In this document: in pieces, positions 1 to 64,000 of the stretch
Layout: each line of letters starts with the position of its first letter
Position numbering within the stretch: the stretch's first letter is position 1
Virus record (IMG/VR): IMGVR_UViG_3300028048_000053
Coordinates: 98,692-162,691 of that record
DNA length: 64,000 nucleotides
Reading direction: 5' to 3' (one strand)
Origin: a virus
Translations under genes and position numbers: made by a program
Notes under the pieces: generated by a model
Told to the model about the DNA's origin: nothing
The model's input: only the letters and a program-made list of their open reading frames with translations
The model's database searches: none

Positions 1-74
1 AGAGCTTCTCGTGCGGCCACCCCTGCGCCGACCGCAGCCCCAGTCCAGGCAAGCTCTCAGGGATTTAACTTTTA
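1..74 (+). CDS. 3' end of an upstream gene (partial). The Ala/Pro-rich C-terminus ends ...RASRAATPAPTAAPVQASSQGFNF then a stop. It is unusually GC-rich (about 65%).
   Basis: Open frame from the window edge to TAA at 72-74. The composition contrasts with the rest of the window. Confidence 0.3.
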
Positions 75-100
75 ATGGAAGTATGTGTTGATTTAGAAGA

Positions 101-135
101 GGTAAAGGGCTTTGTTACAAGCAAAGCCTTTACCC
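101..135. other. Imperfect hairpin (ggtaaagggctttg / caaagcctttacc). A 16-bp perfect palindrome cacagatatatctgtg follows at 155-170. Possible regulatory region upstream of the ATPase gene.
   Basis: Inverted repeats read directly. A TTGACA hexamer at 145-150 overlaps the palindrome. Confidence 0.3.
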
Positions 136-231
136 GCTTCCTACTTGACAACAACACAGATATATCTGTGTCAGCTTATATTTTACAAACATTATTAAAT
201 CAAATTGGTATAGATATGGAGAAGTAGAATA

Positions 232-1209
232 ATGGCAATTAATCTTTTAACAATTCAGCCCAATAAAGTGTCTCGTGACCTGAGCGGATATATCACCTAT
301 ATTTACGGACCTCCTAAGGTCGGCAAAACTACTTTGTGTTCTAAATTTCCCGGAGCACTTCTATTAGCTTTTGAAAAAGGATATAATACAATTCCTGGTA
401 TTTTGGTTCAGCCCATTGAAAAGTGGTCAGAGGTTAAGGAAGTTATTAGGGAACTAAAGAAGAAGGAAGTTAAGGACGTATATAAGACGATTATTATTGA
501 TACCATTGACATAGCTGGTAGCCTGTGCGAAAAGTATGTGTGCAGTCAGCTGGGTATTGACAGTATCGGCGATGGCGGATGGACGAATAATGGCTGGTCT
601 CGCTATAAGAAAGAATTTGAAGAGACTTTTAGAACGATAACTTTGCAGGGATATGCGCTTGTTTTTATCTCTCACAATCAAGAGAAAACTTTTAAGCGTA
701 AGGATGGTACCGAGTATAACATGACCGTACCAACTGCACAGAAGTCTATCAACAATATTGCGAAAGATATGGCAGACCTGTATTGTTATGCAGAACTTGA
801 TGAAGTTTCTAAAGAGCGCAAGTTGGTTATGCGTTCTTTGGATAATACAATTGAGTGCGGCAGTCGTTTTAAATATATGGCTAATGAAATTCCGCTTGAT
901 TATGATGCTCTTGTGAGAGCGGTCAACGAAGCAATTGACAAAGAAGCAAAAGAAAATAATAATCAATTTGTTACCAATGAACGAGTGGTGGCGCCAGTGG
1001 AAGAGCAGTATAATTATGACGAACTATTAACCGAGTTTAATGATTATGTTACACCTCTAATGCAGAAAGACCCTCAGTATTATGGACCGCGTATTGTATC
1101 TATTGTTGAGAAATATCTTGGCAAGGGAAAGAAAATCGCAGACTCTACTATTGACCAGGTTGATTTAATTTATCTTGTTGTTTCTGAGCTTAAGGCAGAT
1201 TTGAAATAA
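232..1209 (+). CDS. AAA_24/RecA-like phage ATPase (Sak4-like recombination/replication ATPase)
   Basis: Walker A GPPKVGKTT. Hydrophobic Walker B stretch IIIDTID. RBS GGAGAAG before the ATG. No in-frame TAG. Confidence 0.6.
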   Translation: MAINLLTIQPNKVSRDLSGYITYIYGPPKVGKTTLCSKFPGALLLAFEKGYNTIPGILVQPIEKWSEVKEVIRELKKKEVKDVYKTIIIDTIDIAGSLCEKYVCSQLGIDSIGDGGWTNNGWSRYKKEFEETFRTITLQGYALVFISHNQEKTFKRKDGTEYNMTVPTAQKSINNIAKDMADLYCYAELDEVSKERKLVMRSLDNTIECGSRFKYMANEIPLDYDALVRAVNEAIDKEAKENNNQFVTNERVVAPVEEQYNYDELLTEFNDYVTPLMQKDPQYYGPRIVSIVEKYLGKGKKIADSTIDQVDLIYLVVSELKADLK

Positions 1210-1252
1210 GCCAGAGTTTATACTCTGGTTTATTTTTTATCGGAGTGATTTT

Positions 1253-1468
1253 ATGGCAAAACATATAGTTATATGTAAATATTGCGGAGAAAAATTTGAT
1301 GCTAATAAAGAGCCTTATGTAATGGCTAGTTCAAGGCGCTACGCCCACGCTAGCTGCGCGGCCGCCGCAGACGCATCAAAAACCCAAGAAGAACGAGATA
1401 AAGAAGCTTTAGAAGCCTATATTAAACAATTATTTAATATACCCAAACTAACGCCAAAAATTAATTAG
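1253..1468 (+). CDS. Small Cys-rich (zinc-ribbon-like) hypothetical protein
   Basis: CxxC...C...C pattern. An RBS-like GGAG lies upstream. Contains one GCGGCCGC motif. Confidence 0.4.
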   Translation: MAKHIVICKYCGEKFDANKEPYVMASSRRYAHASCAAAADASKTQEERDKEALEAYIKQLFNIPKLTPKIN

Positions 1469-1803: not shown

Positions 1804-3315
1804 ATGTAGGTCATCGGCAACGTCTACAAGAATCCTTCTCTCCTGGATTAGACAGATAAATATGTAATTACAGATGAAGATTTTCCAGACCAATTCCATA
1901 AGATAGCTTTTGGTACTATTTTTAAATTACATGAGCTTGGGGCGCAAAAGATTACCTTAAATGATATTGTAAATTTCTTATCAACTCGTCCAAAAAGTGA
2001 AGCTATCTTTAAGCAGCAAAAAGGCGAAGCGTGGTTTACCAAAATTATTGACTCTGTAATTCCCGAATCGTTTGACTATTACTATGATAGATTAAAGAAA
2101 TTTTCACTATTAAGGGCTTATGATAATTTTGGAATTGATGTTAGTGATATTTATGATATTGATAATATTCTAGATTCCAAAAAGAAGCAACAACAAGAAG
2201 ATATTTTGGATAACTCTTCTTTAACGCAAATCGCAGATATGATAGACAGTAAAATAGATGCTATTCGTTTAAAATTTGTTGATGATTGTTATGAAGAAGC
2301 AGAACAAGCCGGTGAAGGAATTTTTGACCTAATAGAAAGTTTTAAATTTCGTCCAGAAGTAGGAGTACCTTTGTATGGGCCTTTTATTAATACTGTGACG
2401 CGCGGAGCCAGGCTTAAAAAGTTCTACTTACGGAGCGCAGCGACCGGGGTTGGCAAGACGCGCAGTATGATTGCTGACACCTGTTACATAGGTTGCGACC
2501 GAATATATGATGAATATGTTGGATGGATTAAAACCGGAGCCGCGCAGCCAACTCTATTTATAACAACAGAGCAAGAAAAAGAAGAAATCCAAACAATGAT
2601 GTTAGCCTTTTTGTCAAATGTTAATGAAGAACATATCATTAATGGGCGATATGAGGGTGATGAAGATAGTAGGGTATTAGAAGCAGCCAAGATATTATCC
2701 GAAAGTAAAATCTATATTGATGAACTACCGGACTTTTCATTATAGGATATTGAAAACCATATAAAGAAAAATATCCGTGAACACGATGTACAATACGTTT
2801 TTCAAGATTACATACATACCTCCATGAAGATTCTTGAAGAGATTACACGACGTAGTGGCGGAGTTCGTTTAAGAGAAGATAATATCTTATTTATGTTATC
2901 TAACAAACTTAAAGACCTATGTAATCAGTATGGAATTTTTATCATGTCCGCAACTTAGCTCAACGGAGATTATGTCGATGCCGAAACGCCGGACCAAAAC
3001 TTGCTTCGCGGGGCTAAGGCGATTGCTGACAAAATTGACTACGGGAGCTTGCTTCTGCTCTCTCGTGAGCGAGACTACGAGGCTCTTGAACCCATATTAT
3101 CAAAATCAACTTTTGAAAAACCAATTATTAAAATGTCTATTTATAAAAATAGACGAGGAAGATATAAGGGTATTTACCTTTGGTGTAAGGCCGATTTGGG
3201 TACTTGCCGCATACAACCCATGTTTGCAACCGGATGGGATTATGAATTAATTCAAATGGATGATGTAAAAATCGAATTAAAAGATGAAGCTCCTTGGGAG
3301 ACAAAGAAAGGATAA
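1804..3315 (+). CDS. dnaB: DnaB-like replicative helicase. The N-terminal domain and RecA-like C-terminal domain are contiguous only if 4 in-frame TAG codons (1807, 1849, 2743, 2956) are read as sense.
   Basis: Walker A GARLKKFYLRSAATGVGKT. C-terminal DnaB-type block ...SATQLNGDYVDAETPDQNLLRGAKAIADKIDYGSLLLLSRERD. All fragments lie in frame 1. The start is uncertain: ATG 1804 or GTG 1771. Confidence 0.8.
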
Positions 3316-4714: not shown

Positions 4715-6490
4715 ATGGAATATCAACTATTAGGCCCGGAACTCTTGGATAGAACAGATTTAACGCCAATCGAACGGGTCTTCTTAAACAGGGGCATTGA
4801 GCCTCAAAATATTAATCACTATCTTCAAACGACCGAAGAAGATATTTTAAATCCATTGTTGTTAGAAAATATGGATAGAGGGGCAAGGATGTTAGTAAAG
4901 CATTTTGCGGCCGGAGATAAAATTTTTATCTAGGTAGATAGCGATGCAGATGGTTATACAAGTTCAGCAGCCTTAATTAACTATCTTAACTTCATTGCGC
5001 CAGGGCATACACAACAAAATATCTCTTATCGGTTGCACGAAGGAAAGTAGCATGGTATTATTTTAGATACCATTCCTTCAAACATTAAATTACTTATTGT
5101 TCCAGACGCGGGAAGCAATGATATAGAACAATAGCGCATACTATCAGAATAGGGAATCGATGTTTTGGTATTAGACCATCACGAGGTTGAAGAAAAATCT
5201 CCATATGCTTGCATTATTAATAATCAATCCTGTGATTATCCGACTAAGTCTCTATCTGGTGTGGGTATAGTATATAAGTTTTGTTAGTATTTAGATACTT
5301 TGTTAAATGTAAATTATTCATCAAAAATATTAGATTTGGTCGCTATTGGAATTATAAGTGATGTAATGGATTTACGAGATTATGAAACAAGAGAATTAAT
5401 CACTCTTGGTTTTAATGATATTGAAAATCCTTTTATTGCGGCTTTTGTAGAAAAGCAATCTTACAGCTTAAAGGGGGAATTAACCCCAGAGGGCGTATCA
5501 TTTTATATTGCACCATATATTAATGCTACTGTAAGAATGGGTAGTTAGAATGAAAAATAGCTCTTATTTGAGTCAATGCTAAACTTTAAAGCCTATGATA
5601 AAATTCTATCAACAAAACGAGGAAGTAAAGGATAGCTTGAAACAAGAGTAGAGCAAGCTTGTAGAAATTGCACTAATATTAAGAGTAGACAGACCAAAGC
5701 AAGAGATACAAGCCTAGAGATAATCAGGTCTATCATCGAGGAAAATGATTTAGCAGATAATCCAATATTAATTATTTAGTTAGAGAATCCAGTAGAGGAA
5801 AATCTAACGGGATTGATTGCTAATCAATTAGTAGGAGAATATCAAAAGCCCGTTCTTTTATTAAATAGATACATAGAAGTTGATGAAAGCACTGGTGAGG
5901 TATTAACAAACTCTTGGAGAGGTAGCGGACGTAACGACTCTTATTCTAAGCTAGGGAACTTGCGCGAATTGGTAGCAAATAGTAATTTAGTAGAATTCGC
6001 GTAGGGACATGCCTCTGCCTTTGGACTTAGTGTTTTGGATGAAAACATAGAATCATTAAAAACATATTTATATGAAGTATTAAAGTAGTTTGATACATCT
6101 GCGTGCTATTATGTTGATTTTATTTGGAGTGGCAACAATGCAGAATAGTCAAAGAATACGATACTTGATATAGGAAGTTTAAAATCTATTTGGGGCCAGG
6201 GATTAACCAAGCCCCAGGTCGCCATAGAAAATGTAAAAGTAACCGCAAATAATTTAACTTTAATGTCGCAAGACAAAAATCCGACACTAAAAATAAAACT
6301 TCCTGGTGATTTAAGCCTGATTAAATTCAGGTCGAGTAAAGAGGAATATGATTCATTATATTCTGAAACTGGTTGTGTTATAATTAATATCGTTGGCACT
6401 TGCGAACAAAATGTGTGGAACGGTAATATTAGTCCTCAAATCATTATTGAAGATTATGAAATTGTAAGTAAAACTGCCTATTACTTCTAA
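4715..6490 (+). CDS. recJ: DHH-family phosphoesterase, RecJ-like ssDNA exonuclease, with about 12 in-frame TAG codons
   Basis: DHH motifs VDSDADGYTSSAA, VPDAGSND and VLDHH. The ORF fragments 4715, 5300, 5813 and 6263 are all in frame 2. Confidence 0.7.
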
Positions 6491-7766: not shown

Positions 7767-8126
7767 TTGACTAAGTTAAAAAAATATGATATAATATATA
7801 TAGAAATGAAAGTAGGAGTTTTGGATATGCCAGCAAAATGTGATTATGATAAAGCTTTTAATTTTAACGTTACCTGTTTAGACCAATATGACTTCAGCGA
7901 ATTTTTGACAGATGGACGAAGTCTTTGGAATATTAGAGACGCAATTGAAGAAAAATATGATAAAGAATTTAAAGAAAAATATGATATTTATGTATTTGAT
8001 AATCTTGACGGAGAAGATACTTGTCAATATTTCGCAAGTAGATATAATGTCTGGTTTCAGGAATATACGGATTGGGTGGTGAGACACGAGAATGGAACTG
8101 ACGAAAAAACAGCAAGAAGGACTTAA
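7767..8126 (+). CDS. Hypothetical protein (119 aa)
   Basis: ORF. Its end overlaps the start of the helicase gene. Confidence 0.45.
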   Translation: MTKLKKYDIIYIEMKVGVLDMPAKCDYDKAFNFNVTCLDQYDFSEFLTDGRSLWNIRDAIEEKYDKEFKEKYDIYVFDNLDGEDTCQYFASRYNVWFQEYTDWVVRHENGTDEKTARRT

Positions 8127-9303
8127 AATTGCGATAGAGCGATATAAAAATCACGAAAAGTTTACCGTAATTTCGGGTTATGCTGGAACAGGTAAATCAA
8201 CGCTGGTTAAGTTCATCGTAGAAGCACTACCAGATATTGAGCCTGAATTGGACGTAAAATATGTAGCATATACAGGAAAAGCCGCTAATGTTTTAAAAAA
8301 TAAAGGTTGTCCAGGAGCAACAACAGCTCATAAATTGATTTACGAGGCTCGTATGATGCCAGATGGTAAATATAGTTTCTTCCCTCGCCAAGAGCTAGAA
8401 GGCCATCCATTGGTAATTATTGTAGACGAGGTCTCAATGTTACCTAAAAAAATGTGGGACAGACTATGTTCTTATAATGTCTATATTATCGCTTGCGGCG
8501 ACCCCGCATAGCTTCCTCCAGTGGCGGACAAAGGAGAGGACCCAGACAACCACGTACTTGACCATCCGCATATTTTTCTTGATGAGATTATGCGGCAGGC
8601 CGCAGAAAGTGAAATTATCAGATTGTCAATGCATGTCAGAGAAGGAAAATCCTTATCTTTATATTGGGCAGAAAATAAAGAAGTAATGATGATTCCAAAA
8701 GGTGAGCTAACTAATGATATGCTCCTGTGGGCCGATGAAGTTTTGTGTTCAACCAATGGGACTTGCGGCCGCCTGAATAATCGTATGCGCCAGGCCAAGG
8801 GATTGTTCGGGGACCCCCAGGTTGGGGATAAAATTATTAATCGTCATAATGAGTGGGAGTTTTTATCAAATAAACAAAACCCTTTAACAAACGGAATTAT
8901 CGGTACGGTAGTAGGTAATAATTATAAACAAGACATTTATTACCCAGGATGGATTCGTAAAGAAGACCACAACTTTTCCATCCCGGTGTATTGGTGTGAT
9001 ATGGCGGGTGATGAAGAGGGAGAGATTTTCTCTGGAGTCATGATGGACTATGAAATGATAAACGGCAGAGAAGAGAGTTTGAACGGTAGGGAAAAATACC
9101 TAATTAATCGCTCTAAAATTAAATCCTTTATTCCCTTTACTTGCACCTATGGATATGCCATCACCACCTGGAAGGCCCAGGGCAGCCAATGGGATAAGGT
9201 CTTGCTAATGGACGAAGGATGGCCATATGAGCCAGAATTACGTCAGAAATTTTTATATACAAGTATCACACGAGCTGCGAATAAATTGGTGATTATTGTT
9301 TAA
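8092..9303 (+). CDS. SF1 DNA helicase of the Dda/RecD/Pif1 type
   Basis: Walker A GYAGTGKST. Motif III reads GDPA-TAG-LPPV, so TAG 8509-8511 sits exactly at the invariant Gln. Both halves are in frame 1. C-terminal ...YAITTWKAQGSQWDKV is RecD motif V/VI-like. Confidence 0.85.
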
Positions 9304-9537: not shown

Positions 9538-12050
9538 GTGAAGATTAACGATAGATATTATCCAGGTAGTCTTCATAATTAAACCATACGGATTATAGCA
9601 ATTTAAGACTACGCGATTCTATTAACACTATTTCAGGACTGATAGATTATGCTATAGAACTTAATCACGAAGTTATTGCTATAACAGACCACGAAAGTGT
9701 TAGTAATGCAATAAAGGTAGAGAAATATTATAATTCAATTAAAAAAGAACATCCAAACTTTAAAGTAATTTTAGGAAATGAAATATATCTAACCCGTGAT
9801 GGCCTTAATGCAGAGAACTTTGACAAAACCCAAGATAAATATTATCACTTCTTGCTCTTGGCGAAGGACGCTATTGGACATCAACAAATTAGAGAACTTT
9901 CTACAAGAGCATGGCTACGTTCATACACCGCTCAGAGAATGCGAAGAGTGCCAACCTATTATCAAGATTTGATTGATATTATCGGGGCAAATCCTGGTCA
10001 TGTCATTGCGTCAAGTGCGTGTTTAGGTGGCTTTATTCCAACTGAATTGCTTCAATGGAACGAAAATAAAGATGATAATTTTTATCAAAAAATTGTTCAA
10101 TGGGTTATTCAAATGAAACAATTATTTGATAATAATTTTTACCTGGAATTACAGCCGTCTGCTTCAAAAGAACAAACATTCGTAAATAGAGAATTGATAA
10201 ATCTATCAAGATTAACCAATACTCCATATATAATAACGACCGATAGCCATTATTTAACCAAAGAAGACGCAAGTATTCATAAAGCATATCTTAATTCGCA
10301 AGATGGTGATAGAGAGGTTGATAGCTTTTATGCAACAACCTATATGATGAGCACAGAAGAACTTGAATCACATCTAGACCTGACTGAAGAAGAATTAGTA
10401 TATGCGTATGAGAATATTTTGAACATCAAAGAGTCGTGTCAAGACTTTAGTTTATTAAAACCGCTTCGTATTCCAGAGCTGCTTTGGAAAACATATCCAG
10501 AAGATAGAGAAGCCATTGAGCACTATTCTCAATTAATTCCTTATCTTCAAACTTTTTATACCTCTGAATATATTGGCGATAAAATATTGGTTAATGCTAT
10601 TGTTGATAAATTAAAGAAAGAGACAAAATTAAACGAACAAAATACTTATGATGCTATAAATACTTGTTTGGAAATGACTTGGATTTCTTCGGAAGTAAAC
10701 AAGGCGCATTGGTCGGCATATTATTTAAATTTACAAAAAATTATTGATACTTGTTGGGAAGCTGGTAGTATTGTTGGTCCAGGGCGTGGTTCTGGCGTTG
10801 GATTTATCTTACTTTATATTTTAGATATTACCCAAATTAATCCTCTATGGGAAGATGTGCGGACGTTCGCTTGGAGATTTTTGAATCCAGCTCGTGTGTC
10901 CGTATTAGATGTAGATTTTGACATCGAGGGTGGCCGGCGGCCGCAAGTATTAACGAAGTTTAGAGAAGTTTATGGCGAAGACAGAGTAGCAAACGTAGTA
11001 ACTTTTGGAACCGAAAAATCTAAATCGGCGATTTTAACTGCGGCCCGTGGACTGGGTATTGATGTAGATGAAGCACAGTATATTTCATCTTTAGTTCCAT
11101 CTGATAGAGGAATGATACGCACCTTAAAACAATGCTACTACGGCGACGAAGAAAATGGTTTTGCCCCAATATCTTCTTTTATTAGAGAAATGGATGCCCG
11201 GCCAGAGCTCTGGCAGGTAGCGCAAAAAATAGAGGGTCTTGTATGCAGAATGGGTATTCACGCTGGCGGAGTTATTTTTGTTGATGAACCGTTTACTAAT
11301 ACAACGGGTCTTATGCGGGCACCCGATGGAACAATTATAACAGCCTTTGACCTTCATGACGCAGAAGCAGTAAGCCTTATTAAATATGATGCTCTTAGCG
11401 TTGAAGCCGAGGATAAAATACATGCTTGTATGGATTTGCTATTGGCCGATGGTGTTGTTGAGCCAGGAGCAACTTTAAAAGAAACCTATGAAAAGATAGT
11501 GGGTATATATGGACTTGAACGCGACGACCCCAAGATGTGGGAAATGGTTTGGAATCATAAAATCCTGTCGCTATTTCAAATGGAACAGCAAAGCGGTATT
11601 CAAGGTATTGCTTTAACAAAACCGAAAAGTGTAGAAGATTTAGCCCACTTGAATTCAGTCATTCGCTTAATGGCTCAAGAAAAAGGTGGAGAGCAGCCTT
11701 TATCCAAGTATGCTCGATTTAAAGAGAATCCAAAACTGTGGCGTCAGGAAATGACAAAATATGGATTGACAGAAGAAGAGCAACAGTTATTGGTACCATA
11801 TGTTGGAGGTTCTTATGGTATTTGCGAAAGCCAGGAGGGTTTCATGCAGTTGGTACAGATTCCAGAGTGTGGCGGCTTTGACCTAAACTTCGCAGACCGA
11901 CTTCGCAAAAGTATTGCAAAAAAGAATCCAAAAGAGTATGAAGCATTAACTAAGGAATATTTTGAAGTTACTGCGGAAAAAGGATTAAGCAAAAATCTGT
12001 GCAACTATGTATGGAACGTACTGGTAGCGACAAGTCGTGGTTACGGTTTT
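9538..12050 (+). CDS. dnaE: DNA polymerase III alpha subunit (DnaE-type), exon 1: PHP domain, palm and most of the fingers. There is an apparent frame break after codon 14.
   Basis: PHP motifs LHNHTDYS and AITDHESV. Palm motif GPGRGSGVGFILLYILDITQINPL. The ORF finder start at 9852 (TTG) would delete the PHP domain. GTG 9538 has an AGAGGGTGA RBS. The exon ends at U 12050 inside GYGF|N. Confidence 0.75.
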
Positions 12051-26360: not shown

Positions 26361-26615
26361 AGACTCCGAATATATTTTTAACTACTATAATACAAAAAAA
26401 ACATTTTCATTGTTAATTAAAAAAGAAAACTAAGACAATAATTCTAGAGGAACTAAAGAAAAATTTATAGATGAAATATTGCTCGAACATTTAAAATCTA
26501 TTTGTTTAATCCTAGCTAATGTCCAATATACTGGAACATACATAAAAGAGGTTAGAATACAAGACTGTAGTAAGCCCGGAAAATCAGGGTGCGTCACCAC
26601 AACACACTAAGCTCG

Positions 26616-50937: not shown

Positions 50938-51063
50938 ACATAAACTCCTTTCTCTCCAACTTTTTTTATTTTTTGCAAAAAATAAAAATAAAGGGATAAT
51001 GAGAAATAATCTCATTATCCCCTTAGATTATTCCTATTTATTTTAAAAAAATAGGAAATTAAA

Positions 51064-54317: not shown

Positions 54318-54359
54318 ACCTAAACTCCTCCTTGTTATTTTAATGAATATTTTTCATCC

Positions 54360-55062
54360 AATTATCCGGCTTATCATCCGGTTTACCACCAGCTAGCCGA
54401 GATTTTATATCCAAATCCCAATTCAACCAAAGTGAATATCTTTCTATTAAATCAAACGTCTAAAACATTGTTAAATTTAAACAATCTTGTAAAGACATTG
54501 ACTATAGACCAACAGTAAGAGCTGAAGCATATTGAACAAAAACGCTACCTTTATCTTCACCCTTCTGCGCGGCTACTCGCTAACGCGCCCGCATAAGCTT
54601 ATCCGCAATTTCTTTCGCTTTAGCATTACCAGGATTGAAATTCTAGTTATTATCTGACCTGATGCAGAAAACTTCTTTTAACACACTCTGCAATGCTTCA
54701 AAATTATTTTCATCAATAGTAATTGTGTTCTATTCTCCTATCATTATCATACTTCTAGGAGTGAATGAAATTTTATAAGCTGGAACTATTAAAGTTAAAA
54801 CCTACAAAACTGAATCTTTTTTATCTCTAGATTCTTTCTCTGTCATCAATGTCATAAATATTTGAAAATTATTTGTATTTCCTAAAAGAGTTTCGCCCTA
54901 AGCTATCATATTTTTATTAATGGTTAAGCACTAAATACCAATAAAAAAATCGGTATCTCCTATTAAAGCAATCTCTTTTATAGTTGGTTGATGAATTGTT
55001 AGCTATAACTCCGGTATTGGAATATCAATACCGGCCATTAAAGCCAGACGAATATCCATTAT
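54360..55062 (-). CDS. Hypothetical neck/tail protein (about 235 aa). Approximate.
   Basis: ATG overlapping the upstream stop (TAATG). Several TAG codons. Confidence 0.3.
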
Positions 55063-55643
55063 CTATTATTAAATATCCTATCAAAATTCTCAACTAAATC
55101 AGCTTGCTCAACAGGATTTTGAGCTCTTTTGGTATCCTCTCCCCCATGAACAGCCCTATACATTAAACACAAACCAGCATATTCATCAGTAAGAATCATC
55201 TAATTAGCTCCTATAAATTCTAGTTCTCCAATACCGGTTAAGGATTTCCCATTTAGCATGGTGTCTATTTCTGCGGCAATTTTATAAGGCCGCAGTTGAA
55301 AATCTTTCAAATTCCACTAATCAAAATGACAAATAATATCAAACTCAACGATATTATCACGAAACTCTGGGTTACCACTTGGTACAAAGTTATCAAAACT
55401 AATAATAATATAGTTCAAAACAGAACCATCGACATACAGTTTTGGTACTATTTTAATCTATTGACCAAACATAGAAAATGTTTCATCTTCGGTTATATTT
55501 GGCCTAGATAAACAATCATTTGTAGTATACCACAACAATTTCTTTAATCGTTCATTTTTTAAAAATAAGTCTACAATAATAGACATATCTTTTTCTGTGG
55601 ATAGAAAACTAGATTTTGGAAATTTATAGCTTTCTATTTTCAT
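55060..55643 (-). CDS. Hypothetical neck/tail protein (about 190 aa)
   Basis: AAGGAG RBS plus ATG 55643. Read through 3 TAG codons. Confidence 0.35.
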
Positions 55644-55654
55644 AACAAAACTCC

Positions 55655-56727
55655 TTTATCTCAGAACAGCGATTCAACAACTATTGTTTTCGTTAAATCT
55701 TTAAATTTTAAATCGAACTAACCACTATACGAAGCCGTCCACTTTAAATCAATAGAATTATCATCGTTAATCTTGTAAACAATAGGCAATTTATTGTCAA
55801 GATTCCAAGTACCATCGGCATAAATACCATCGTAATAATAATGATATTTTCTTTTTGGGGTGATAAAAGTTTCCCCAACAATGGCGGCTTCAATCTCTGC
55901 AGGATTAATATTAACATCTTTAACTACCAAAGAGCCTACTAATCCTTTTTCTACGTCATCTTCTGTTTCATTGGCGTAGTATTCAACAGCGGTAATTTCT
56001 AGAATTCCAGGCGTGCTTATCCAGTCTGTTGCTTCAACTCTCCAACACACAGAATCATTCTGTAAATAGAATTTACTATATCTTGTAAAATATTTTTTTG
56101 TAGCATCTGTTAAAGGCATTAAAATGTGTAGAGAGTAATTTGGATTATCTACACTAATACCATGTTTCTAGATATAATCTATTTTTGTTTCAACAGGACC
56201 TCTAACCGCGGCATACGTATGGCACTTCTCGTTGTTTTCATCCAACCATTCAATTTCATAACGACATCTTCGAATGTCTGCACGAAAGTACGCTAATTCA
56301 GTTAAATCCTATAAGCAAACAAGCCAATAAGAATTTGTGTTGCACCACTCAAAAACATCACCCGCGGCAAAGTTGTGTTCAAATCCTATCGAAATAATTT
56401 TATCATCATGGTCATATTTCAGTTTGTCGGGATTGATTAGCGCTCTAACTGGAGGCTAATCACTTTCATATCCTTCCGAAACTTTTTTAACGAATGCTCC
56501 TTGGTAAGAATATAGAACTGCCTTATCTAGGCTACGCTTTTTATCCCGTATCATTCTATTCTACTACGGAAAACCACCATGATATTCTAACCTGGTGGCC
56601 ATTTCATTAACCCCAGTCTATACATTTTGAGTAAACTCCGGAGATAGAATATATCCTCCACGATTAGCCATTAACCTCAAACTTGAATTTAAAAATATAT
56701 TATTAGCAAGTCTTTCCATTGAAACAA
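55655..56727 (-). CDS. Hypothetical head-tail region protein (about 345 aa). Approximate.
   Basis: Includes fragment 55718-56119. RBS GAGG plus ATG at about 56727. Confidence 0.3.
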
Positions 56728-56748
56728 CCTCGCAATAAAGAAATACAC

Positions 56749-56937
56749 TCAAAAATAGTTTTGCGATAAACTCCAAAAGGAGTCTCTACTATAAGTAATC
56801 CTTGTAGTTTTGCAAGCAACTATAAAAATTGCGGCACTTCGGAAAATATATTCCCTAAGCCCGCAATCTCTATTATTAATGTATTTAACTATTTTTTCCA
56901 ATCTTCTTCGTTTTCTCGCATTGGAATTAATTTCCAT
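56749..56937 (-). CDS. Small basic protein (62 aa)
   Basis: ORF with ATG and TGA. Weak. Confidence 0.25.
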   Translation of the reverse strand: MEINSNARKRRRLEKIVKYINNRDCGLREYIFRSAAIFIVACKTTRITYSRDSFWSLSQNYF

Positions 56938-56984
56938 AACTAATTTACCAGTCTAATAGAATTCTTTTCTAAAGCCTATTCAGA

Positions 56985-57598
56985 AAAACATTTGTCCATT
57001 AATAATAAACTCCAGTTTTAAAAATATCCCAATTAGACCGATATAATTCTGTATTATCTGCACCTTTCTCAGGACGACGCCTTTTATAAAGTCTTTGCAG
57101 ATGTCTAGATTGTCTCTAGCACTCTCCCAACAGTGAGAGTAATTTTTGAAGATGATTGGCTTGACTGGTCATCTTAAAGTCAGCTCCGCTAAATTTCATA
57201 CGAGTATTTTCAATGGAAGTCACTTGACGCTACACCCAAGCGATCATCATTAAAATAGCTAATATATTTATCTCTTCTGGAGTTAATTCATTATTAAAGC
57301 AAGAATTATCTACAACAACGTTTTCCGAATTATCAAGTAATGCCGATAAAGCAAAATCCTCTCCGGTAACTTCTTCTTTGGGTATGACTTTAACATCTTC
57401 TACATAATCATACAAATCAATTCTTGGAAATTCAAATTCAGGTAATGCTTGCATAATTAATTCATGCAGGTCTCGCAAAGTATCTTCGGGGGTTAATTCT
57501 ACATACATATCGTCTGTTATTTTACCTAAAAAACGATTATATACCTTGGCGAATTTAGTCTATATAACAGGAGTCTCATTATCGGTATTTGTATTCAT
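56985..57598 (-). CDS. Hypothetical head-tail connector region protein (about 200 aa)
   Basis: Includes fragment 57230-57508. Read through 3 TAG codons. Approximate. Confidence 0.3.
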
Positions 57599-57619
57599 TA
57601 AATACGCCCCTTTGCTTTT

Positions 57620-58200
57620 AATTAACCCTTTTTTACAACTTTATACTTCGATCCAGAAGTTCTACGAACAGGCTCATCGACAACCGTCTAGACCTTCTCC
57701 TGTTGCGTTCGTCTCTAGACGGGCTCTTCGGATTTCTTAGATTGCTCTTCAGCAATTTCCTCTTGTCGCAGCTAAATGATTTTAGCTAAATCTGCTCCAG
57801 TTTTTTCTTTGAAGGCGTTCATCTTTCTAGTGTCTGTTAACGGCAACTCAATACTTAGTTCTTTAACTAAATCAATAACTCCTTCCGGAGCAAAGTCTAA
57901 ACAATCAAGCCATTCATCTAAAGAACCATGCAAAATCAGCTCTTTAACATCGGCTGCAGTCATATTGTATTCAGGTTCTGTGTGACCAATAAACTCTTTG
58001 GTAGCTGCTGGGTCTTCAATCAACAAGTATTCCTTTATAAGAGCATGGCCACCTGGCTAATAATTTAAGCCCTATAACTCCTCAAAGCTAATCTTTTTCT
58101 TCTCGCCAGGCTAAAAATCTCTTGCTAAAACACCAATCTCTGGGACAGAATAAAAAATTCTACTAGCGCTTCGATTGGTTACAATAAACATTTTACTCAT
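57620..58200 (-). CDS. Hypothetical head protein (about 190 aa)
   Basis: ATG at about 58200 with an AAAGGAG RBS. Includes fragment 57772-58026. Approximate. Confidence 0.3.
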
Positions 58201-58274
58201 ATAATAAACTCCTTTTTCTCCATAAAGGGGAAAAGAAAAAAAAATCAATTCCCCTTTATATATTTAAATCTAAA

Positions 58275-59522
58275 TTAAGACTTTACAATGTAATAAGTCT
58301 TACTACTATCGACTTCGGTATCCTCACTTGGGACATATTTACCATTTACAAACTCATAATATCCAGAGGTAGAAGGATTACCAGTTGGTGAAGTAACCTC
58401 TTCATACTCAACCGCAGAAGATGTTACAACCTCACCATCGATAGTAACAACATTCTTAACAGTATCCTTCAGATTAAAAGCACCGCTCTTGGACAAGCTG
58501 GTATCCTTATAAACGTGAATAGCATTATCCATCATGCAAGCAACACCAACCTTCTCGTAAACATGGATGTCACGAGACCAGTCATAATTTTCGAACTCAT
58601 TGGTATAAAGGTCGCCCTCAAAAGCAATCTTTACAGGCTTCTAATCGGCAGAGGATGGAACAATCCAACAAAGAGAAGGATCAAGAACTTTCTCAGTACC
58701 AAAAGCATCTTTATACTGGTTAGGCAGAATAACAATATTCTCACCCTTATAACCAGCTAAACGACCAGTGCGATACAGCTCATCCTTCATAGCTTCGGTA
58801 TATCTCCAAGCCTCTTGAGGAATCATTTTAACCGCAAACTCGTTGGTGCAATAAACTGTTACATTACCATACATTTTTGCATGATTCAGAATTGCATCAA
58901 AAGCAGCCTCGTTAAAGCCATTAGAAACAATCTTGTTCTCAGCAGGAAGTTGATCAATACCTTCATCAAGAGCCTTGCCAACTTCTTCAAAAATAAGATC
59001 TTCAATCGCCTCGTAAATGATATTTACTAGCTCAGGCCAGTCAACACGACCATCTAGAAACTCTTCAAAACCAATCTAAGCAGCTCCACCAATCGCGTTA
59101 GTGGGGACCTCAAAGCTCTCCTGAGCGCTTCCCAGCTTGAAGACCTCATAGATGCCAGCCAGTCCAACACGAGTGACAAACTGCTTACCGCGAGTACGAT
59201 TACGATTCAAAGTCTTACGACGGAAAATGGGCTTGTCACCCTGTGCAAAGCGCTTAACCTCTGCCCATTGCTCATAATTAAGCTTAGTTCTTTCTGGAAC
59301 ACTCTCACTAAGAGTTTCCTCAATGACACGGAAAATAGTATTTTTATTTTCTCTATAAGCACGATAATCTGGGGCTAGCGCAGAGAATTCTAAACGTAAA
59401 GCTTCTTGTACATCATCATAACTAAAAGTTTCATTGTTGAAACTATATGCTACAGGAGCGGAACGCTTAGCACCAGCAGCAATCTTAGCTAATTTAATTA
59501 AATCTTGTGTATTTAATGCCAT
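58275..59522 (-). CDS. Major capsid protein candidate (about 415 aa, 2 TAG codons)
   Basis: AAGGAGAGAG RBS plus ATG 59522. Fragments 59076-59522, 58641-58874 and 58275-58535 in one frame. Position after the scaffold and decoration genes. Confidence 0.5.
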
Positions 59523-59540
59523 CGTTTCTCTCTCCTTTCA

Positions 59541-60263
59541 TTAAGCAATACGCATAATCTTAACGGCCTTCTGACGGTCGCCAAGGTCATACTTTTTAAC
59601 AACTTGCCACTTCATAGCAGTAGTATCTCCAGTAGTACGAAGAATACCATCTGCAGGAGTGGGGGCAAGGATGGTTCCAATTGTTAGAGTCTCCCATGAC
59701 TCATCAACCATATTAGTGGTATAAATATCGCCAACTGCAGTCTTTAGGACACGTGGGGTCATAACTGCACCAGTGGGCATATCCTTAGGTCCAGAATAAT
59801 CCCAGGTAGACAGGAAAGGATTATCAGTAGAATCCCACTCATAAGGATCTGCAGGGGTTACAACCTTAGGAATATCATTACCATCAGCATCTTTTCCACC
59901 ATAATAACGTGGAGAAGACTGTTGAGTCATTGTCGCTTCGCCATCAATAGGACTATAAACACGAGCTACATAATTATCCTTTAGCATAGCAAAGTCAGCA
60001 TCAGATTCCCATTCACGATATACTTTAACCTCATTAAAAACAAGCATCCACTCGCCCTCAATTGCCTTATTCTTTTCAAAAGTGGTAAGACCAAGAGCAT
60101 AGTTGTATTTTACGAACTGACCATTTTCAAGCTTTGTGATTGTTGGATCGGCTGGTAGCTGACCATAAACCTGGCCATTTCTTTGAGCTGACAGATGGTT
60201 GGGCTCAACTTGGCCATAGCCACGCTCAACAAGTTGAGCCGCACTTAATCTAGTTTTAGCCAT
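59541..60263 (-). CDS. Head protein (240 aa). Possible decoration or auxiliary capsid protein.
   Basis: Complete ORF without TAG. AGGAGG RBS. Lies between the scaffold-like and capsid genes. Confidence 0.4.
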   Translation of the reverse strand: MAKTRLSAAQLVERGYGQVEPNHLSAQRNGQVYGQLPADPTITKLENGQFVKYNYALGLTTFEKNKAIEGEWMLVFNEVKVYREWESDADFAMLKDNYVARVYSPIDGEATMTQQSSPRYYGGKDADGNDIPKVVTPADPYEWDSTDNPFLSTWDYSGPKDMPTGAVMTPRVLKTAVGDIYTTNMVDESWETLTIGTILAPTPADGILRTTGDTTAMKWQVVKKYDLGDRQKAVKIMRIA

Positions 60264-61570: not shown

Positions 61571-61581
61571 TTATATCTTCC

Positions 61582-63129
61582 TCATTTCGCAGATTCCTTA
61601 TTCTAAATAGTTTTTTCACTAAGTTCGCCTTCTTCTTTGGGAGGACGTCCTCCTTCTGATTTTGAAGTTTGTATTGTATTTGTTTGCTTATTACTGCCCA
61701 AATCTTTTAAATCAGCAGAAGAAAGTGTAGAGGACATGAGTGGGGGAAGCATAATTTCACTAAGATGAAGTAATTCATTCTCAAAGAAAGCCGTGTTAAG
61801 TATAAAGCTCTAAGACTGTCCAAGAGCAATCTATGGAAGCATTTTTGAAAATCCTACCTAATCCTGTTCTTTATACATTTTTGATAGGGTCTAATAATTG
61901 TACTGTGTAGTAAGAAGCATATAAAATCTAAAAGTCCATTTCTTTTTATTACTACTTCGTTTTGAAGCAATCTGAGAAAATAGATGTTCATACTATAAAA
62001 TCAAATCTCTTAGGGTTCCTTCATCAGCCAAAATAGATTTTTCCAATGCTAAATTACCATCAGTATTAAATATATTCTTCGATACTCCAAGAGCATTATA
62101 CACTGTTTTTTCAGCATTGTCAAGGGAATTGTCCTTAGCAAGAGAGGTTGCCGCAGACACATCAACGTCTTGAATATCAGCAAAAGTGGTAAGTACGTCA
62201 ACGCCAACGCAATTAGCTAGCATTTCTACCGCATTATTGTGTATGTCTCTAGCTTCATCAATATCAAAAATTAAATCGCCATTTTTATCAAGCGGCAATT
62301 TCTAAATAATAATCTTTAATAATTGCTATAATTGGCGCTTGCGGTCAATGCCTTGTGCCACTCCTAGGTCAATAATCTCTGGAATAGCGTTTACAAACAA
62401 AGGCAATTCATTAGTTCCAAAAAGATTGAATTTAAAAGCACACCCTGGGTCTAGAAGATACCAATGTCCCTTCGCGGTTCCTATGGGTACATAAGGGTCG
62501 TCCGCAGGTAGTTTTCCTTGCTTATAAAGTAAATATCCTTTCTTGAACTCGGGTGGGAATAAATCTAATATCTTCATTCTATAACCAATCTCAGGAAACT
62601 TAGTATCGAAGAACTTCATATCAAATTCGATTGCTGGCATACCTCTGATTTTATATCTAGACCTACACCATTTCCATGGTAATTCCTAAACAATAATACC
62701 CTCGGTACCCTCGTAAGCATAGCCATAATAGACTCCATCTCTCAAAACAGAAAGAGTAAAGTCAGCACATAGTCTTTTAATATTACTATTATCAAAGTAA
62801 GTTAATGCTTTATTAAAATCAGTTAATACTTTTTCTTCGTTCACAGTTTCGGTAAAGGGTTCTGCGACCATGTACCAATCGAATCTATACATTGTAGCGA
62901 AGTAATTAACCACTTTCTAATAAATACCATTTGTACGATAAAAATAATTAGATATAGCGCGTAACAAAGGAACATCATTTTCTATTAATGCTTTAATAAC
63001 AAATTCTTTATCTCGAAAATGTCTAAAATCTAATTTATCAAAGTGCTTTAAATCTACAACGGCGTCATCATAAGCTTTAGTGCCTATTTTTATACGGGCA
63101 TAGTTACCAGAATCTGGGGAACCACGCAT
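61582..63129 (-). CDS. Portal protein candidate (about 515-530 aa). Start may be TTG at about 63177.
   Basis: Fragments 62917-63129, 62686-62913, 62326-62640 and 61993-62298 in one frame. TGA at about 61582. Assigned by size and position between the terminase-like and protease/scaffold genes. Confidence 0.45.
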
Positions 63130-63194
63130 ATTGAAGCCCTTTTCATAAATCTAATCTAGTCTTTCCTATTTTTCCAAATTAAATGACACCTCCT

Positions 63195-63551
63195 TTAATA
63201 TCCAGCTTTAGACATAATATAATCATATGACAAAAGATTTTCTTCTGTATATGGTATTTCTATTAATTTAATTCCGTGAAGAGCGCAAAATCTTCTCTTC
63301 TAATTATCATTGTATTGCTGCTGGTAGAAACCTCTTTTTCCACCAAATTTAGGACTGGGTTCATAATGCTGGCGTCCTTGATATTCTATAATGAAATCAA
63401 TTCTTCCTTCATCATCAAAAATTACAAAATCAAACCTTAATGGTCTGCCATTGGGACTATTTAATCCTTCGAAGCTGTATTCCATTTTAAAATTTAACCC
63501 TGCATCTCTCAATATTTCTTCAATACAAATCTCTGCTCTTGAAGCCCGCAT
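63195..63551 (-). CDS. PD-(D/E)XK endonuclease-like protein (DUF559 / Vsr-like fold), about 118 aa
   Basis: RPLRFDFVIFDDEGRIDFIIEYQGRQHY motif. Strong AAGGAGG RBS. One TAG. Confidence 0.5.
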
Positions 63552-63566
63552 CTATTAACCTCCTTG

Positions 63567-64000
63567 TCACACTCGTGCTGGAGTAAAGAACTTCCACTCG
63601 GCCGCATTAAATTTCTTCTTTTTCTTTTTGTTATCTTCCATTTCTTTAATATAATACAAACCATATTCAAAAGCGGAAAACGTATCTTTAGGAACGTTTC
63701 TATTGGCTTGCTTTAAAATAATATTTACACCCTCGTTATCTTCGCGTAAATTCATCATTTCATCCCGAAGAATGGAGGTGGCCGTAAATGGATAAAGAAA
63801 GATTTTTCTTTCTTCCGGCTTCATGGCAGCTCCCTTTACCGTTCCTAACAGTTTTGTTTTTGCGATTTTTTCATCAATTAAAAATTTTATTTTTCCAGAA
63901 GCAAGCTAAACTCTGACGTTAGAGTGCATCTCGGTATTAATTGGGGCGTTTGCTTTTATAAGGTATAAAGCATCATCTTCGCAATCTGATGTTCTGAATT
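63567..64000 (-). CDS. 3' part of a gene continuing beyond the window. Terminase large subunit is suggested only by position.
   Basis: Open frame from the window edge to TGA at 63567. Confidence 0.25.

What the first reader, a model, noticed from the sequence alone, without database searches (positions are those of the whole stretch)
1..64000. Amber (TAG) codon reassigned to a sense codon, almost certainly Gln, across the whole element
Under the standard code essentially every large gene on both strands breaks into fragments that all end in TAG, while TAA and TGA fall exactly at plausible gene ends. If TAG is read as sense, the fragments of each gene turn out to share one frame and regenerate conserved motifs:
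- TAG 8509-8511 sits at the invariant Gln of SF1 helicase motif III (GDPA-Q-LPPV).
- The DnaB N- and C-terminal domains are joined through 4 TAG codons.
- NrdD joins through about 14 TAG codons into ATP-cone plus glycyl-radical domains.
- The roughly 3085-codon tape-measure gene is one frame carrying more than 100 TAG codons.

This matches the amber-to-Gln recoding (translation table 15-like) described for some gut phages. No suppressor tRNA and no release-factor gene is present in these 64 kb, so they must lie elsewhere in the genome. A minority of genes have no TAG at all: the ATPase 232-1209, the secreted protein 6539-7294, the 240 aa head protein, and the small genes. These could be translated before the suppressor is expressed.
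Basis: partly seen in the sequence, partly recalled or inferred. Interest (0 to 1): 0.8.

Follow-up and report, generated by a model that had tools for sequence, protein, structure and literature searches.

The report
Phage that reads TAG as glutamine
This 64 kb stretch is part of a roughly 172 kb gut phage related to Bacillus phage SPbeta that reads the stop codon TAG as glutamine in about four-fifths of its genes; this is real, but it is a known kind of phage recoding (genetic code 15).

Summary
With TAG as a stop, ORFs of at least 120 codons cover 38% of the window. With TAG as sense they cover 93%. About 41 of 51 genes carry 324 in-frame TAGs, and all genes end in TAA or TGA.

TAG means Gln:
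- In NrdD, 6 of 14 TAGs lie in the 14 Gln-conserved columns and none in 339 columns conserved for other residues (P = 4e-8).
- TAG fills the invariant Gln of SF1 helicase motif III and of the DnaB SQL motif.
- Between 95-97% identical strains, all 7 codon changes involving TAG are TAG to CAA or CAG.
- Portal homologues show CAA/CAG at most of the TAG sites.

The source is ENA contig ERZ27252073 k141_3465 (171,985 bp), distantly related to the published code-15 phage phAss-1.

Corrections: the tape-measure gene has 90 TAGs, not more than 100. DnaE has none and is split by a group I intron.

No tRNA or release factor lies in the 80 kb I could read; relatives carry tRNA(CUA). TAG is absent from core replisome genes and rare in abundant virion proteins. 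Syntenic relatives range from standard code to lightly recoded.

Verdict: a new member of a known kind, of modest interest.

The parts
1..64000 (.). Whole window, equal to about 98686-162685 of ENA contig ERZ27252073 k141_3465. TAG is used as a sense codon on both strands. About 41 of 51 genes carry at least one TAG, 324 in all (1.6% of codons, one third of Gln codons).
8092..9303 (+). SF1 (RecD/Pif1-like) helicase. Its single TAG at 8509-8511 is the invariant Gln of motif III (GDPA-Q-LPPV).
   Evidence: Pfam AAA_30/UvrD_C_2. The X-masked query aligns X to Q in 3e1s, 9kwf and 3upu. Relatives L032 and L034 have CAA there.
1804..3315 (+). DnaB-like replicative helicase with 4 TAGs (1807-1809, 1849-1851, 2743-2745, 2956-2958). 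The last is the Gln of the conserved 'SQL' motif.
   Evidence: Pfam DnaB_C and DnaB. PDB alignments 4nmn, 2q6t and 2vye.
4715..6490 (+). RecJ-like DHH exonuclease with 12 TAGs.
   Evidence: Pfam DHH and RecJ_OB. The standard-code orthologue in L032 has no in-frame TAG.
14557..16761 (+). Anaerobic ribonucleotide reductase NrdD with 14 TAGs. Six sit at Gln-conserved columns (residues 129, 282, 294, 435, 490, 721). A seventh (residue 583) is Q in 97 of 119 homologues.
   Evidence: Pfam NRDD E = 4e-186; (P = 4e-8; log-odds Q +35 bits, next best E -26).
17398..17916 (+). NrdG activase with 1 TAG. It aligns to CAA in both relatives.
41680..51015 (-). Tape-measure protein, 3085-3111 codons, with 90 in-frame TAGs in a single frame.
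   Evidence: PF10145 on the collection's 3085-aa gene call
36775..41559 (-). 1594-aa tail or baseplate protein with 35 TAGs.
61582..63129 (-). Portal protein with 10 TAGs. At those sites MT836163 has CAA/CAG at 7, phAss-1 at 5, and the cultured standard-code Enterococcus phage VRE9_3 at 4.
   Evidence: PHROG 2739
9548..13725 (+). DnaE (Pol III alpha) in two exons (about 9548/9582-12050 and 12367-13725). It has 0 TAG among 49 Gln codons. It is also TAG-free in the recoded relatives L034, L038, L039, L040 and L042.
232..1209 (+). AAA_24 ATPase with 0 TAG (2 CAA, 9 CAG).
53172..60263 (-). This span holds three abundant virion proteins that are TAG-poor: YomU-like tail tube 53172-54317 (1 TAG), YonB-like major capsid 58275-59522 (2 TAGs) and the 240-aa head protein 59541-60263 (0 TAG). 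TAG makes up 10% of their Gln codons, against 44% in low-copy virion proteins.
   Evidence: Fisher P = 2e-4

Best explanation
The window is about 37% of a roughly 172 kb SPbeta-like tailed phage from an animal or human gut metagenome. The phage uses genetic code 15: TAG is a glutamine codon, and TAA and TGA are the only terminators.

Shown:
- TAG is a sense codon, it means Gln, and this holds in both replication and virion genes.
- TAG supplies one third of all Gln codons.
- TAG appears largely to take the place of CAG, from which it differs by one C-to-T transition. This fits the 35% GC content.

Inferred:
- Decoding is by a phage-encoded tRNA with anticodon CUA, charged with Gln by the host machinery. 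It must outcompete release factor 1 almost completely, because 90 TAGs in the tape-measure gene need about 97.5-99% read-through per codon for a useful yield.
- That tRNA is not in the 80 kb I could read. It is expected in the unread 92 kb, because relatives of this lineage carry tRNA arrays that include tRNA(CUA).
- TAG usage is graded by gene. It is absent from a core replisome set (DnaE, GyrA, NAD ligase, YorF, AAA_24), rare in the most abundant virion proteins, and densest in low-copy tail proteins.
- I read this as two pressures. A few genes must be translatable in the unmodified host. TAG is also a costly codon that highly expressed genes avoid.
- It is not a clean early/late switch, because DnaB, RecJ, NrdD and NrdG all need TAG decoding.
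For: ORF restoration and coverage rising from 38% to 93%.

Gln identity:
- NrdD: 6 of 14 TAGs fall in the 14 Gln-conserved columns and 0 in 339 other conserved columns; hypergeometric P = 4e-8; Q +35 bits against E -26.
- SF1 motif III and the DnaB SQL motif.
- Against two syntenic relatives, 24 of 45 TAG comparisons show CAA or CAG.
- Against 95-97% identical strains from other samples, 25 TAGs are conserved and all 7 changes are TAG to CAA or CAG.
- Portal.

The collection stores this contig's NrdD with Q at every TAG.

Lineage: SPbeta-type Pfam families; portal 38.6% identical to phAss-1, which has three tRNA(CUA) genes (PMC10607447).

Relatives carrying tRNA(CUA):
- The same IMG/VR contig as the GyrA relative L030 carries one in L159.
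- A 166 kb contig (L142) carries one. It holds a homologue of window gene 21041-21463 about 2.5 kb from a tRNA array.
-.

Gene-class statistics.

Yield arithmetic: 0.975^90 = 0.10 and 0.99^90 = 0.40.

The phenomenon is established in the literature: Borges et al., 10.1101/2021.08.26.457843; proteomic proof in crAss-like phages, PMC9523058.
Against: - No tRNA of any kind lies in contig positions 88917-168948, so the decoding agent is not shown for this phage.
- In phAss-1 two suppressor tRNAs sit just upstream of nrdD. Here that gap holds an HNH endonuclease and a DUF3310 gene.
- No release factor 2 or GlnRS was found.
- There is no peptide-level evidence.
- The gene-class P values treat codons as independent and the classes were chosen after looking.
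- The host is unknown. MAG bin labels of relatives are inconsistent, though mostly Bacillota.
- From my own knowledge, many Bacillota make Gln-tRNA through GluRS plus GatCAB. How a CUA tRNA would be charged is therefore open.
Confidence: 0.9

Rival explanations
1. TAG is still a stop, and the element is a decaying, pseudogenised prophage or a defective genome whose genes are truly broken.
For: Under code 11 nearly every large gene is fragmented. No suppressor tRNA was found in 80 kb.
Against: - All 324 interruptions are TAG and none is TAA or TGA, and frames are preserved over as many as 3111 codons.
- TAGs sit at functionally invariant Gln positions.
- TAGs are conserved in independent assemblies from other samples.
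- Random decay would also produce frameshifts and the other two stops.
Confidence: 0.01
2. TAG is a sense codon but encodes another amino acid (Glu, Lys, Leu, Ser, Tyr, Trp or pyrrolysine), or is decoded ambiguously.
For: - At variable NrdD sites the homologues often have E or K.
- Relatives carry, besides about 75-nt tRNA(CUA) genes, an 87-95-nt tRNA(CUA) with a long extra arm.
- From my own knowledge, a long variable arm is the hallmark of Leu, Ser and Tyr tRNAs, whose synthetases largely ignore the anticodon.
Against: - Log-odds over the 14 NrdD sites are Q +35 bits, E -26, K -26, and L, S and W -60.
- No TAG lies in a column conserved for another residue.
- All 7 strain-level exchanges are with CAA or CAG, and 5 of them need two nucleotide changes.
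- The long-arm tRNA of phAss-1 is most similar to that phage's tRNA-Gln(CUG), at 80%.
Confidence: 0.04
3. There is no phage-encoded suppressor. Decoding instead relies on a host factor, or on a phage factor that is not a standard tRNA gene, such as a modified host tRNA, inactivation of release factor 1, or a tRNA too unusual for the detectors.
For: - There are zero tRNAs in 47% of the contig, including the position where phAss-1 keeps two suppressors.
- Borges et al. found TAG-suppressor tRNAs in only 40% of TAG-recoded genomes.
- Babkin et al. found them in only one of three divergent recoded relatives.
Against: - 92 kb of the contig is unread.
- phAss-1 keeps 32 of its 36 tRNAs in one 12 kb array far from the structural genes.
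- Several relatives of this lineage carry arrays that include tRNA(CUA).
- ARAGORN found these readily, so detection is not the obstacle.
Confidence: 0.2
4. Recoding here acts mainly as a timer. Standard-code genes are expressed early, and TAG-containing genes (virion and lysis) only after the suppressor accumulates. This is the Borges model and the first reader's suggestion.
For: - DnaE, GyrA, ligase, YorF and AAA_24 have 0 TAG in 111 Gln codons (P about 3e-20 at the genome-wide 33% share).
- DnaE is also TAG-free in recoded relatives.
- TAG density is highest in tail genes.
- The lightly recoded relative L034 has TAG only in accessory genes.
Against: - DnaB (4 TAGs), RecJ (12), NrdD (14), NrdG, ThyA and the ORF at 3520-4623 need TAG decoding. 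They are interleaved on the same strand with the TAG-free genes.
- Late, abundant head and tube proteins are TAG-free or TAG-poor, which a timer does not predict.
- The signal-peptide lysozyme 6539-7294 has no TAG.
Confidence: 0.35
5. The pattern is a sequencing or assembly artefact, for example systematic C-to-T errors turning CAG into TAG.
For: TAG seems largely to replace CAG. The window comes from a single metagenome assembly.
Against: - Logan assemblies of a different run (SRR8442993) are 100% identical over 14.5 kb and 2.9 kb.
- Strains at 95-97% identity from other samples keep 25 of 32 TAG codons.
- Whole genes are TAG-free while still using CAG.
Confidence: 0.005

Closest known systems
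Phage phAss-1 (OQ749652) and the proposed genus Phassvirus, with the wider group around them (Babkin et al. 2023, PMC10607447)
   Same: - A gut siphovirus-type genome over 130 kb that reads TAG as Gln.
- A tape-measure protein of about 3100-3200 aa.
- DnaE, NrdD/NrdG and dUTPase genes.
- The portal is its second-best match in the GenBank phage set, at 38.6% identity over 93% of the protein.
- NCBI files it under 'Caudoviricetes code 15 clade'.
   Different: - There is no nucleotide-level similarity, so this is not the same genus.
- phAss-1 has TAG in 28% of ORFs, and its nrdD is annotated as an intact code-11 ORF. Here about 80% of genes carry TAG and nrdD has 14.
- phAss-1 has 36 tRNAs, with two tRNA(CUA) genes next to nrdD. 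None are found here in 80 kb.
- This genome is larger (172 against 136 kb), lower in GC, and rich in group I introns and homing endonucleases.
Code-15 crAss-like phages (Yutin et al. as cited in Borges et al.; proteomic validation by Peters et al. 2022, PMC9523058)
   Same: TAG is reassigned to Gln in a phage of a standard-code host. The inferred mechanism is the same.
   Different: - They are an unrelated lineage: podovirus-like Crassvirales of Bacteroidota hosts.
- In the crAss-like representative shown by Borges et al. the replication genes stay in the standard code and TAG is concentrated in late genes. Here most replication genes are recoded too.
Firmicutes-infecting recoded clades of Borges et al. 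(for example Agate, Garnet, Topaz), including closely related genomes with different codes
   Same: - Low GC and TAA-dominated stops.
- Recoded and standard-code members occur within one lineage. Here L032 is standard code, L034 is lightly recoded and the window is heavily recoded, all syntenic, with NrdD about 75% identical.
- Homing endonucleases carry the recoded codon.
   Different: - I did not test membership of any named clade; no terminase phylogeny was built.
- About 80% of genes use TAG, above the clade means of 26-71% reported for phages of standard-code hosts.
Bacillus phage SPbeta and SPbeta-like phages (Enterococcus EF1/VRE9, Brevibacillus Sundance, Staphylococcus SPbeta-like)
   Same: - Shared protein families: YorF, YorH, YonB, YonD, YonG, YomU, YomV, YomW.
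- The portal is 22-28% identical.
- A DnaE-type polymerase and a large siphovirus genome.
   Different: The portal genes of VRE9_3 and Sundance that I examined have no in-frame TAG. The relationship is distant.

Membership tests
Genetic code 15 (TAG to Gln) recoded Caudoviricetes | Genes fragment under code 11 and are restored to full length in a single frame when TAG is read as sense. | tested here: met
   The longest ORF rises from 827 to 3115 codons. ORF coverage rises from 38% to 93%, while TGA-as-sense gives only 46%.
Genetic code 15 (TAG to Gln) recoded Caudoviricetes | In-frame TAG aligns with glutamine in homologues that use the standard code. | tested here: met
   NrdD (P = 4e-8; Q +35 bits), SF1 motif III, DnaB SQL motif, NrdG and portal. 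All strain-level exchanges are with CAA or CAG.
Genetic code 15 (TAG to Gln) recoded Caudoviricetes | TAA and TGA remain terminators, and TAG is not used to end genes. | tested here: inconclusive
   All gene models end in TAA or TGA, but this is circular for TAA/TGA-bounded ORFs. In support: the independent gene calls give the same ends. NrdD ends at TGA, the last TAG-derived Gln (residue 721) lies in a Gln-conserved column, and the gene is the same length (734 aa) as its L032 orthologue. The standard-code relative L032 ends 3 of 24 genes in TAG.
Genetic code 15 (TAG to Gln) recoded Caudoviricetes | A phage-encoded suppressor tRNA with anticodon CUA. This is frequent but not universal: it was detected in 40% of TAG-recoded genomes (Borges et al.). 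| tested here: inconclusive
   None in the window or flanks, that is 80 kb of 172 kb. The positive control finds three in phAss-1. Relatives carry them. The rest of the contig could not be fetched.
Genetic code 15 (TAG to Gln) recoded Caudoviricetes | Peptides with Gln at TAG positions. | not testable with these tools
   This needs metaproteomics, as in PMC9523058.
phAss-1-related / SPbeta-like large siphoviruses | SPbeta-type structural and replication protein families, and a tape-measure protein of about 3100 aa. | tested here: met
   YorF, YorH, YonB, YonD, YonG, YomU, YomV, YomW and PhageMin_Tail on a 3085-aa product. Portal PHROG 2739.
Genus Phassvirus (phAss-1, BK046881, BK025033) | Genome-wide nucleotide similarity. 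The three members share 80-86% nucleotide identity with one another. | tested here: not met
   Megablast of 40 kb of the window against 50,697 phage records gave no match apart from a 72-nt intron segment. The portal is only 38.6% identical.
Recoding as a late-gene or lysis timer (Borges model) | Replication genes are in the standard code, and recoded codons are confined to structural and lysis genes. | tested here: not met
   DnaB, RecJ, NrdD, NrdG and ThyA carry TAG. Only DnaE, GyrA, ligase, YorF and AAA_24 are TAG-free. The model may still hold for that core set.

The most novel reading that the evidence does not exclude
This phage may represent the far end of an observable code-change series within one syntenic lineage: standard-code L032, lightly recoded L034, then this genome with about 80% of its genes recoded.

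In that reading TAG decoding has become effectively constitutive rather than a late-gene switch. Only a small replisome core (DnaE, gyrase, ligase) is kept readable by an unmodified host. The residual avoidance of TAG is driven by expression level.

The decoder could also be unusual. One candidate is the conserved 87-95-nt tRNA(CUA) with an extra arm seen in relatives. Another is a decoder that is not phage-encoded at all, given that no tRNA lies in 80 kb.
Probability: 0.25. Interest if true: 0.55.

Novelty: new member of a known kind. Interest (0 to 1): 0.3.

Why it matters
The practical consequence is immediate. Annotated with table 11, this genome yields gene fragments and looks non-coding or degraded. 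With table 15 it is a normal SPbeta-like phage with 93% coding coverage.

Scientifically it adds a heavily recoded member to a little-studied Bacillota-phage lineage. Close syntenic relatives in that lineage still use the standard code or are only lightly recoded. That makes a natural series for asking which genes accept a reassigned stop first and which never do.

It does not change what is known about how or why phages recode.

Tried and rejected
1. Reaching the rest of the source contig to look for the suppressor tRNA did not succeed.
- The exact-protein look-up gives only 10 kb on each side of window-encoded proteins.
- I searched with a radical-SAM protein that lies upstream of gyrase in an 82% relative, but no hit came from the 171,985 bp contig.
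- A concatenated five-protein query failed outright, with one irrelevant hit.
- An exact 33-mer from the window is absent from IMG/VR.

2. tRNA scans of 10 kb flanks found no tRNA(CUA). They covered gyrA in 30 IMG/VR and JGI relatives, DnaE in 17 GTDB contigs and nrdD in two relatives.

3. A hidden or unusual tRNA in the window was not found. Rfam down to E = 5 gave no tRNA-like hit. The 72-nt megablast hit at 19343-19414, which first looked like a tRNA, is part of a group I intron.

4. Host identification failed. Cluster names are empty, and MAG labels of relatives conflict: Bacilli, Erysipelotrichaceae, Clostridia, but also Bacteroidales and Methanobrevibacter, which suggests mis-binned phage contigs.

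I used GenBank relatives at the codon level instead.

6. I looked for a special 3' context for TAG. The +4 base distribution resembles that of CAG.

7. TGA or TAA reassignment is rejected: neither gives long ORFs.

Full report
**The observation**

The window is 35% GC. Under the standard code the longest stop-to-stop ORF is 827 codons. With TAA and TGA as the only stops there are ORFs of 3115, 1596, 1053 and 1020 codons, while freeing TGA instead changes almost nothing. ORFs of at least 120 codons cover 38% of the window under code 11, 93% with TAG as sense and 46% with TGA as sense.

A non-overlapping gene set has 324 in-frame TAGs in 19,943 codons (1.6%). It has no in-frame TAA or TGA, and about 41 of 51 genes carry at least one TAG. 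The public collection holds this very contig, and its own gene calls give the same gene lengths. Its stored NrdD product is identical to mine, with Q at all 14 TAG positions. So the recoding had already been handled by a code-aware gene caller.

The statement that no gene ends in TAG is true of my models but circular, because I bounded ORFs by TAA and TGA.

**What TAG encodes**

To avoid circularity I masked TAG as X.

- NrdD (14 TAGs) against 119 homologues of 72-78% identity:
  - Six TAGs fall on columns that are Q in all 119, and a seventh on a column that is Q in 97.
  - After de-duplication to 18 sequences, 6 of 14 TAGs lie in the 14 columns that are at least 95% Q. None lies in the 339 columns conserved for any other residue (hypergeometric P = 4e-8).
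  - Summed log-odds are +35 bits for Q, against -26 for E and K and about -60 for L, S and W.
- The single TAG of the SF1 helicase (8509-8511) aligns to the Q of GDxxQLPPV in RecD2, 9kwf and Dda.
- DnaB residue 385 is the Q of the SQL motif.
- At the codon level, two syntenic relatives show CAA or CAG opposite the window's TAG in 24 of 45 comparisons.
- In strains 95-97% identical from other samples, 25 TAGs are conserved. All 7 differences are between TAG and CAA or CAG, and five of them need two nucleotide changes.
- For a late gene, the portal, the best GenBank relative has CAA or CAG at 7 of 10 TAG sites. phAss-1 has it at 5, and a cultured standard-code Enterococcus phage at 4.

TAG + CAA + CAG makes 4.9% of codons, a normal Gln content. 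The share of (TAG+CAG) among Gln codons is 0.41-0.57 in the four large gene classes (0.26 in the small homing-endonuclease sample), as if TAG mostly replaces CAG.

I consider TAG = Gln settled at the level sequence analysis can reach.

**What the element is**

The window is about positions 98686-162685 of ENA contig ERZ27252073 k141_3465, which is 171,985 bp long.

The plus-strand block 1-20092 is a replication and nucleotide-metabolism module:
- AAA_24 ATPase, a YorH-like protein, DnaB and a 367-codon ORF with Toprim-like motifs but no Pfam hit;
- RecJ-like DHH protein, a signal-peptide Phage_lysozyme2, SF1 helicase and DnaE;
- an HNH endonuclease, DUF3310, NrdD, a GIY-YIG endonuclease and NrdG;
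- dUTPase and RuvC.

Most of the rest of the window, chiefly on the minus strand, is the virion module:
- portal, a YonD-like protein, a 240-aa head protein and YonB-like capsid;
- YomW, YomV and YomU tube;
- a 3085-3111-aa tape measure and large tail proteins.

Upstream of the window lie gyrase, an NAD ligase, ThyA and YorF. Just beyond the window's right-hand end lies a 493-aa gene that I take, without a domain hit, to be the terminase large subunit.

Megablast finds no relative among 50,697 phage records. By protein, the portal is 48.9% identical to an unannotated human faecal fragment. It is 38.6% identical to phAss-1, 22-28% to Enterococcus, Brevibacillus and Lactococcus phages, and 24% over about 64% of its length to Staphylococcus SPbeta-like phages. 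phAss-1 is the published code-15 member of this group. It is 136 kb with a 3149-aa tape measure, 36 tRNAs and three tRNA-Sup(CTA) genes, and has TAG in 28% of its ORFs (PMC10607447).

**Relatives span the code change**

Two contigs found through NrdD share gene order with the window, in the sequence RecJ, SF1, DnaE, NrdD, NrdG, dUTPase.

| Genome | Size | In-frame TAG | Genes ending in TAG |
|---|---|---|---|
| L032 | 162.6 kb | 0 in 5956 codons | 3 of 24 |
| L034 | 167.5 kb | 19 in 5962 codons, all in accessory genes | none |
| Window | about 172 kb contig | 324 in 19,943 codons (1.6%) | none |

This matches the reports of Borges et al. and Babkin et al. that the code differs between close relatives. 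About 80% of genes using TAG is above the clade means of 26-71% that Borges et al. give for phages of standard-code hosts.

**How TAG is distributed**

| Gene class | TAG among Gln codons |
|---|---|
| DnaE, both exons, about 1276 codons | 0 of 49 |
| DnaE + GyrA + NAD ligase + YorF + AAA_24 | 0 of 111 |
| Abundant virion proteins (capsid, 240-aa head, tube) | 10% |
| Low-copy virion proteins | 44% |

- For the core set of five genes, P is about 3e-20 at the genome-wide 33% share, treating codons as independent.
- DnaE is also TAG-free in five recoded relatives.
- The difference between abundant and low-copy virion proteins has Fisher P = 2e-4.
- The TAG-free genes are interleaved, on the same strand, with DnaB (4 TAGs), RecJ (12), NrdD (14), NrdG and the homing endonucleases.

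That is plausible for the replisome core, but it does not account for TAG-poor late proteins. Nor is it a clean early/late split. Selection against a costly codon in highly expressed genes is the simpler explanation for the virion pattern. Both are inferences.

**Mechanism**

ARAGORN finds no tRNA in the window or in the fetched flanks, which together cover contig positions 88917-168948. Rfam finds nothing tRNA-like even at E = 5. As a positive control, ARAGORN finds 36 tRNAs including three with anticodon CUA in phAss-1. No release-factor or aminoacyl-tRNA synthetase domain was found in the window proteins that were scanned. A few were scanned only against PHROGs or not at all.

I could not fetch the other 92 kb. 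An IMG/VR pattern scan for the phAss-1-type anticodon arm shows that relatives do carry tRNA(CUA):
- It hit the same contig as the GyrA relative L030.
- It hit a 166 kb contig that has a homologue of window gene 21041-21463 next to a tRNA array.
- It hit several contigs with homologues of the genes that lie upstream of gyrase in the 82% relative L054. All of these hits carry tRNA(CUA).

I therefore infer a phage-encoded tRNA(CUA) elsewhere in the genome, with probability roughly 0.75-0.8.

Ninety TAGs in the tape measure mean per-codon read-through must be about 97.5% for a 10% yield and 99% for a 40% yield. The reassignment must therefore be nearly complete when tails are made. This is not leaky suppression.

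**Comparison and verdict**

The phenomenon is established: Ivanova et al. and Yutin et al. as cited in Borges et al.; Borges et al.; proteomic proof in PMC9523058; this very lineage in PMC10607447. NCBI even has a 'code 15 clade'.

This genome is not a Phassvirus, because it shows no nucleotide similarity to those genomes. It is a new, more heavily recoded member of the same broad SPbeta-like group.

Interest is modest. It rests on the graded series of relatives, the conserved TAG-free replisome core, and the still-unlocated decoder.

Noticed in passing
window 12051-12366 (+): An ORF-less group I intron splits DnaE. Rfam RF00028 scores 49 bits (E = 2e-9), just under the gathering score of 50. 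The exons join exactly at residues 836|837 of the uninterrupted DnaE of relative L034. L032 has DnaE split at the same place.
   Followed up: yes
window 19177-19418 (+): A second ORF-less group I intron splits the dUTPase gene (exons 18949-19176 and 19419-19607). Rfam RF00028 scores 26.5 bits (E = 7e-5) in a 401-nt search. A 72-nt piece (19343-19414) is 87-90% identical to sequences in unrelated Staphylococcus phages and in bajarodcaudo virus 2. In L032 the same gene holds a LAGLIDADG ORF.
   Followed up: partly
window 9548-9600 (+): The DnaE reading frame breaks 14 codons after a GTG start that has a good Shine-Dalgarno sequence. The text reads '...YPGSLHN' followed by TAA, and the homologous sequence 'HTDYSNLRLRD...' continues in the -1 frame. 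Relatives read straight through. This could be an assembly error, a real lesion or a programmed frameshift. Only one assembly covers it.
   Followed up: partly
window 13722-14276 and 16758-17453 (+); L002 6139-7044; L005 2888-3529 and 4446-5021: There are many free-standing homing endonucleases (HNH, GIY-YIG) between replication and packaging genes, and all carry TAG. The 97% identical strain L001 has extra GIY-YIG and LAGLIDADG insertions between the 3520-4623 ORF and RecJ. It also holds an 85% identical copy of the DnaE intron core (L001 15754-15875).
   Followed up: partly
window 27688-28323 (+) and 24070-25134 (-): An undecaprenyl-diphosphate-synthase-like gene (PF01255, E = 5e-51) and a weak glycosyltransferase-1-like gene sit among the tail-fibre genes. 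They may be auxiliary genes that act on the cell envelope.
   Followed up: no
L142 3304-3398; L009 12442-12532; also L141, L118, L161, L158, L167, L132, L182: Relatives carry, besides ordinary tRNA(CUA) genes of about 75 nt, a conserved 87-95-nt tRNA(CUA) with an extra stem-loop in the variable region (CCCTCTGA.GG.G). Its anticodon arm is nearly identical to that of the neighbouring tRNA-Trp(CCA) in L142. In phAss-1 it is most similar overall to tRNA-Gln(CUG). A full-text search turned up no description of it.
   Followed up: partly
L032 (ENA ERZ28614559 scaffold_57) and L034 (ENA ERZ27302875 k141_2645781): These syntenic relatives are about 163-168 kb, with NrdD about 75% identical to the window's. 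One uses the standard code (TAG ends 3 of 24 genes). The other is lightly recoded (0.3% of codons). The code therefore changed within this lineage.
   Followed up: yes
window 25131-27293 (-): A 720-aa protein with 14 TAGs has a C-terminal 'CLSGDSLITMADGT' stretch that resembles the start of a Hint/intein domain. It has no Pfam or PHROG hit.
   Followed up: no
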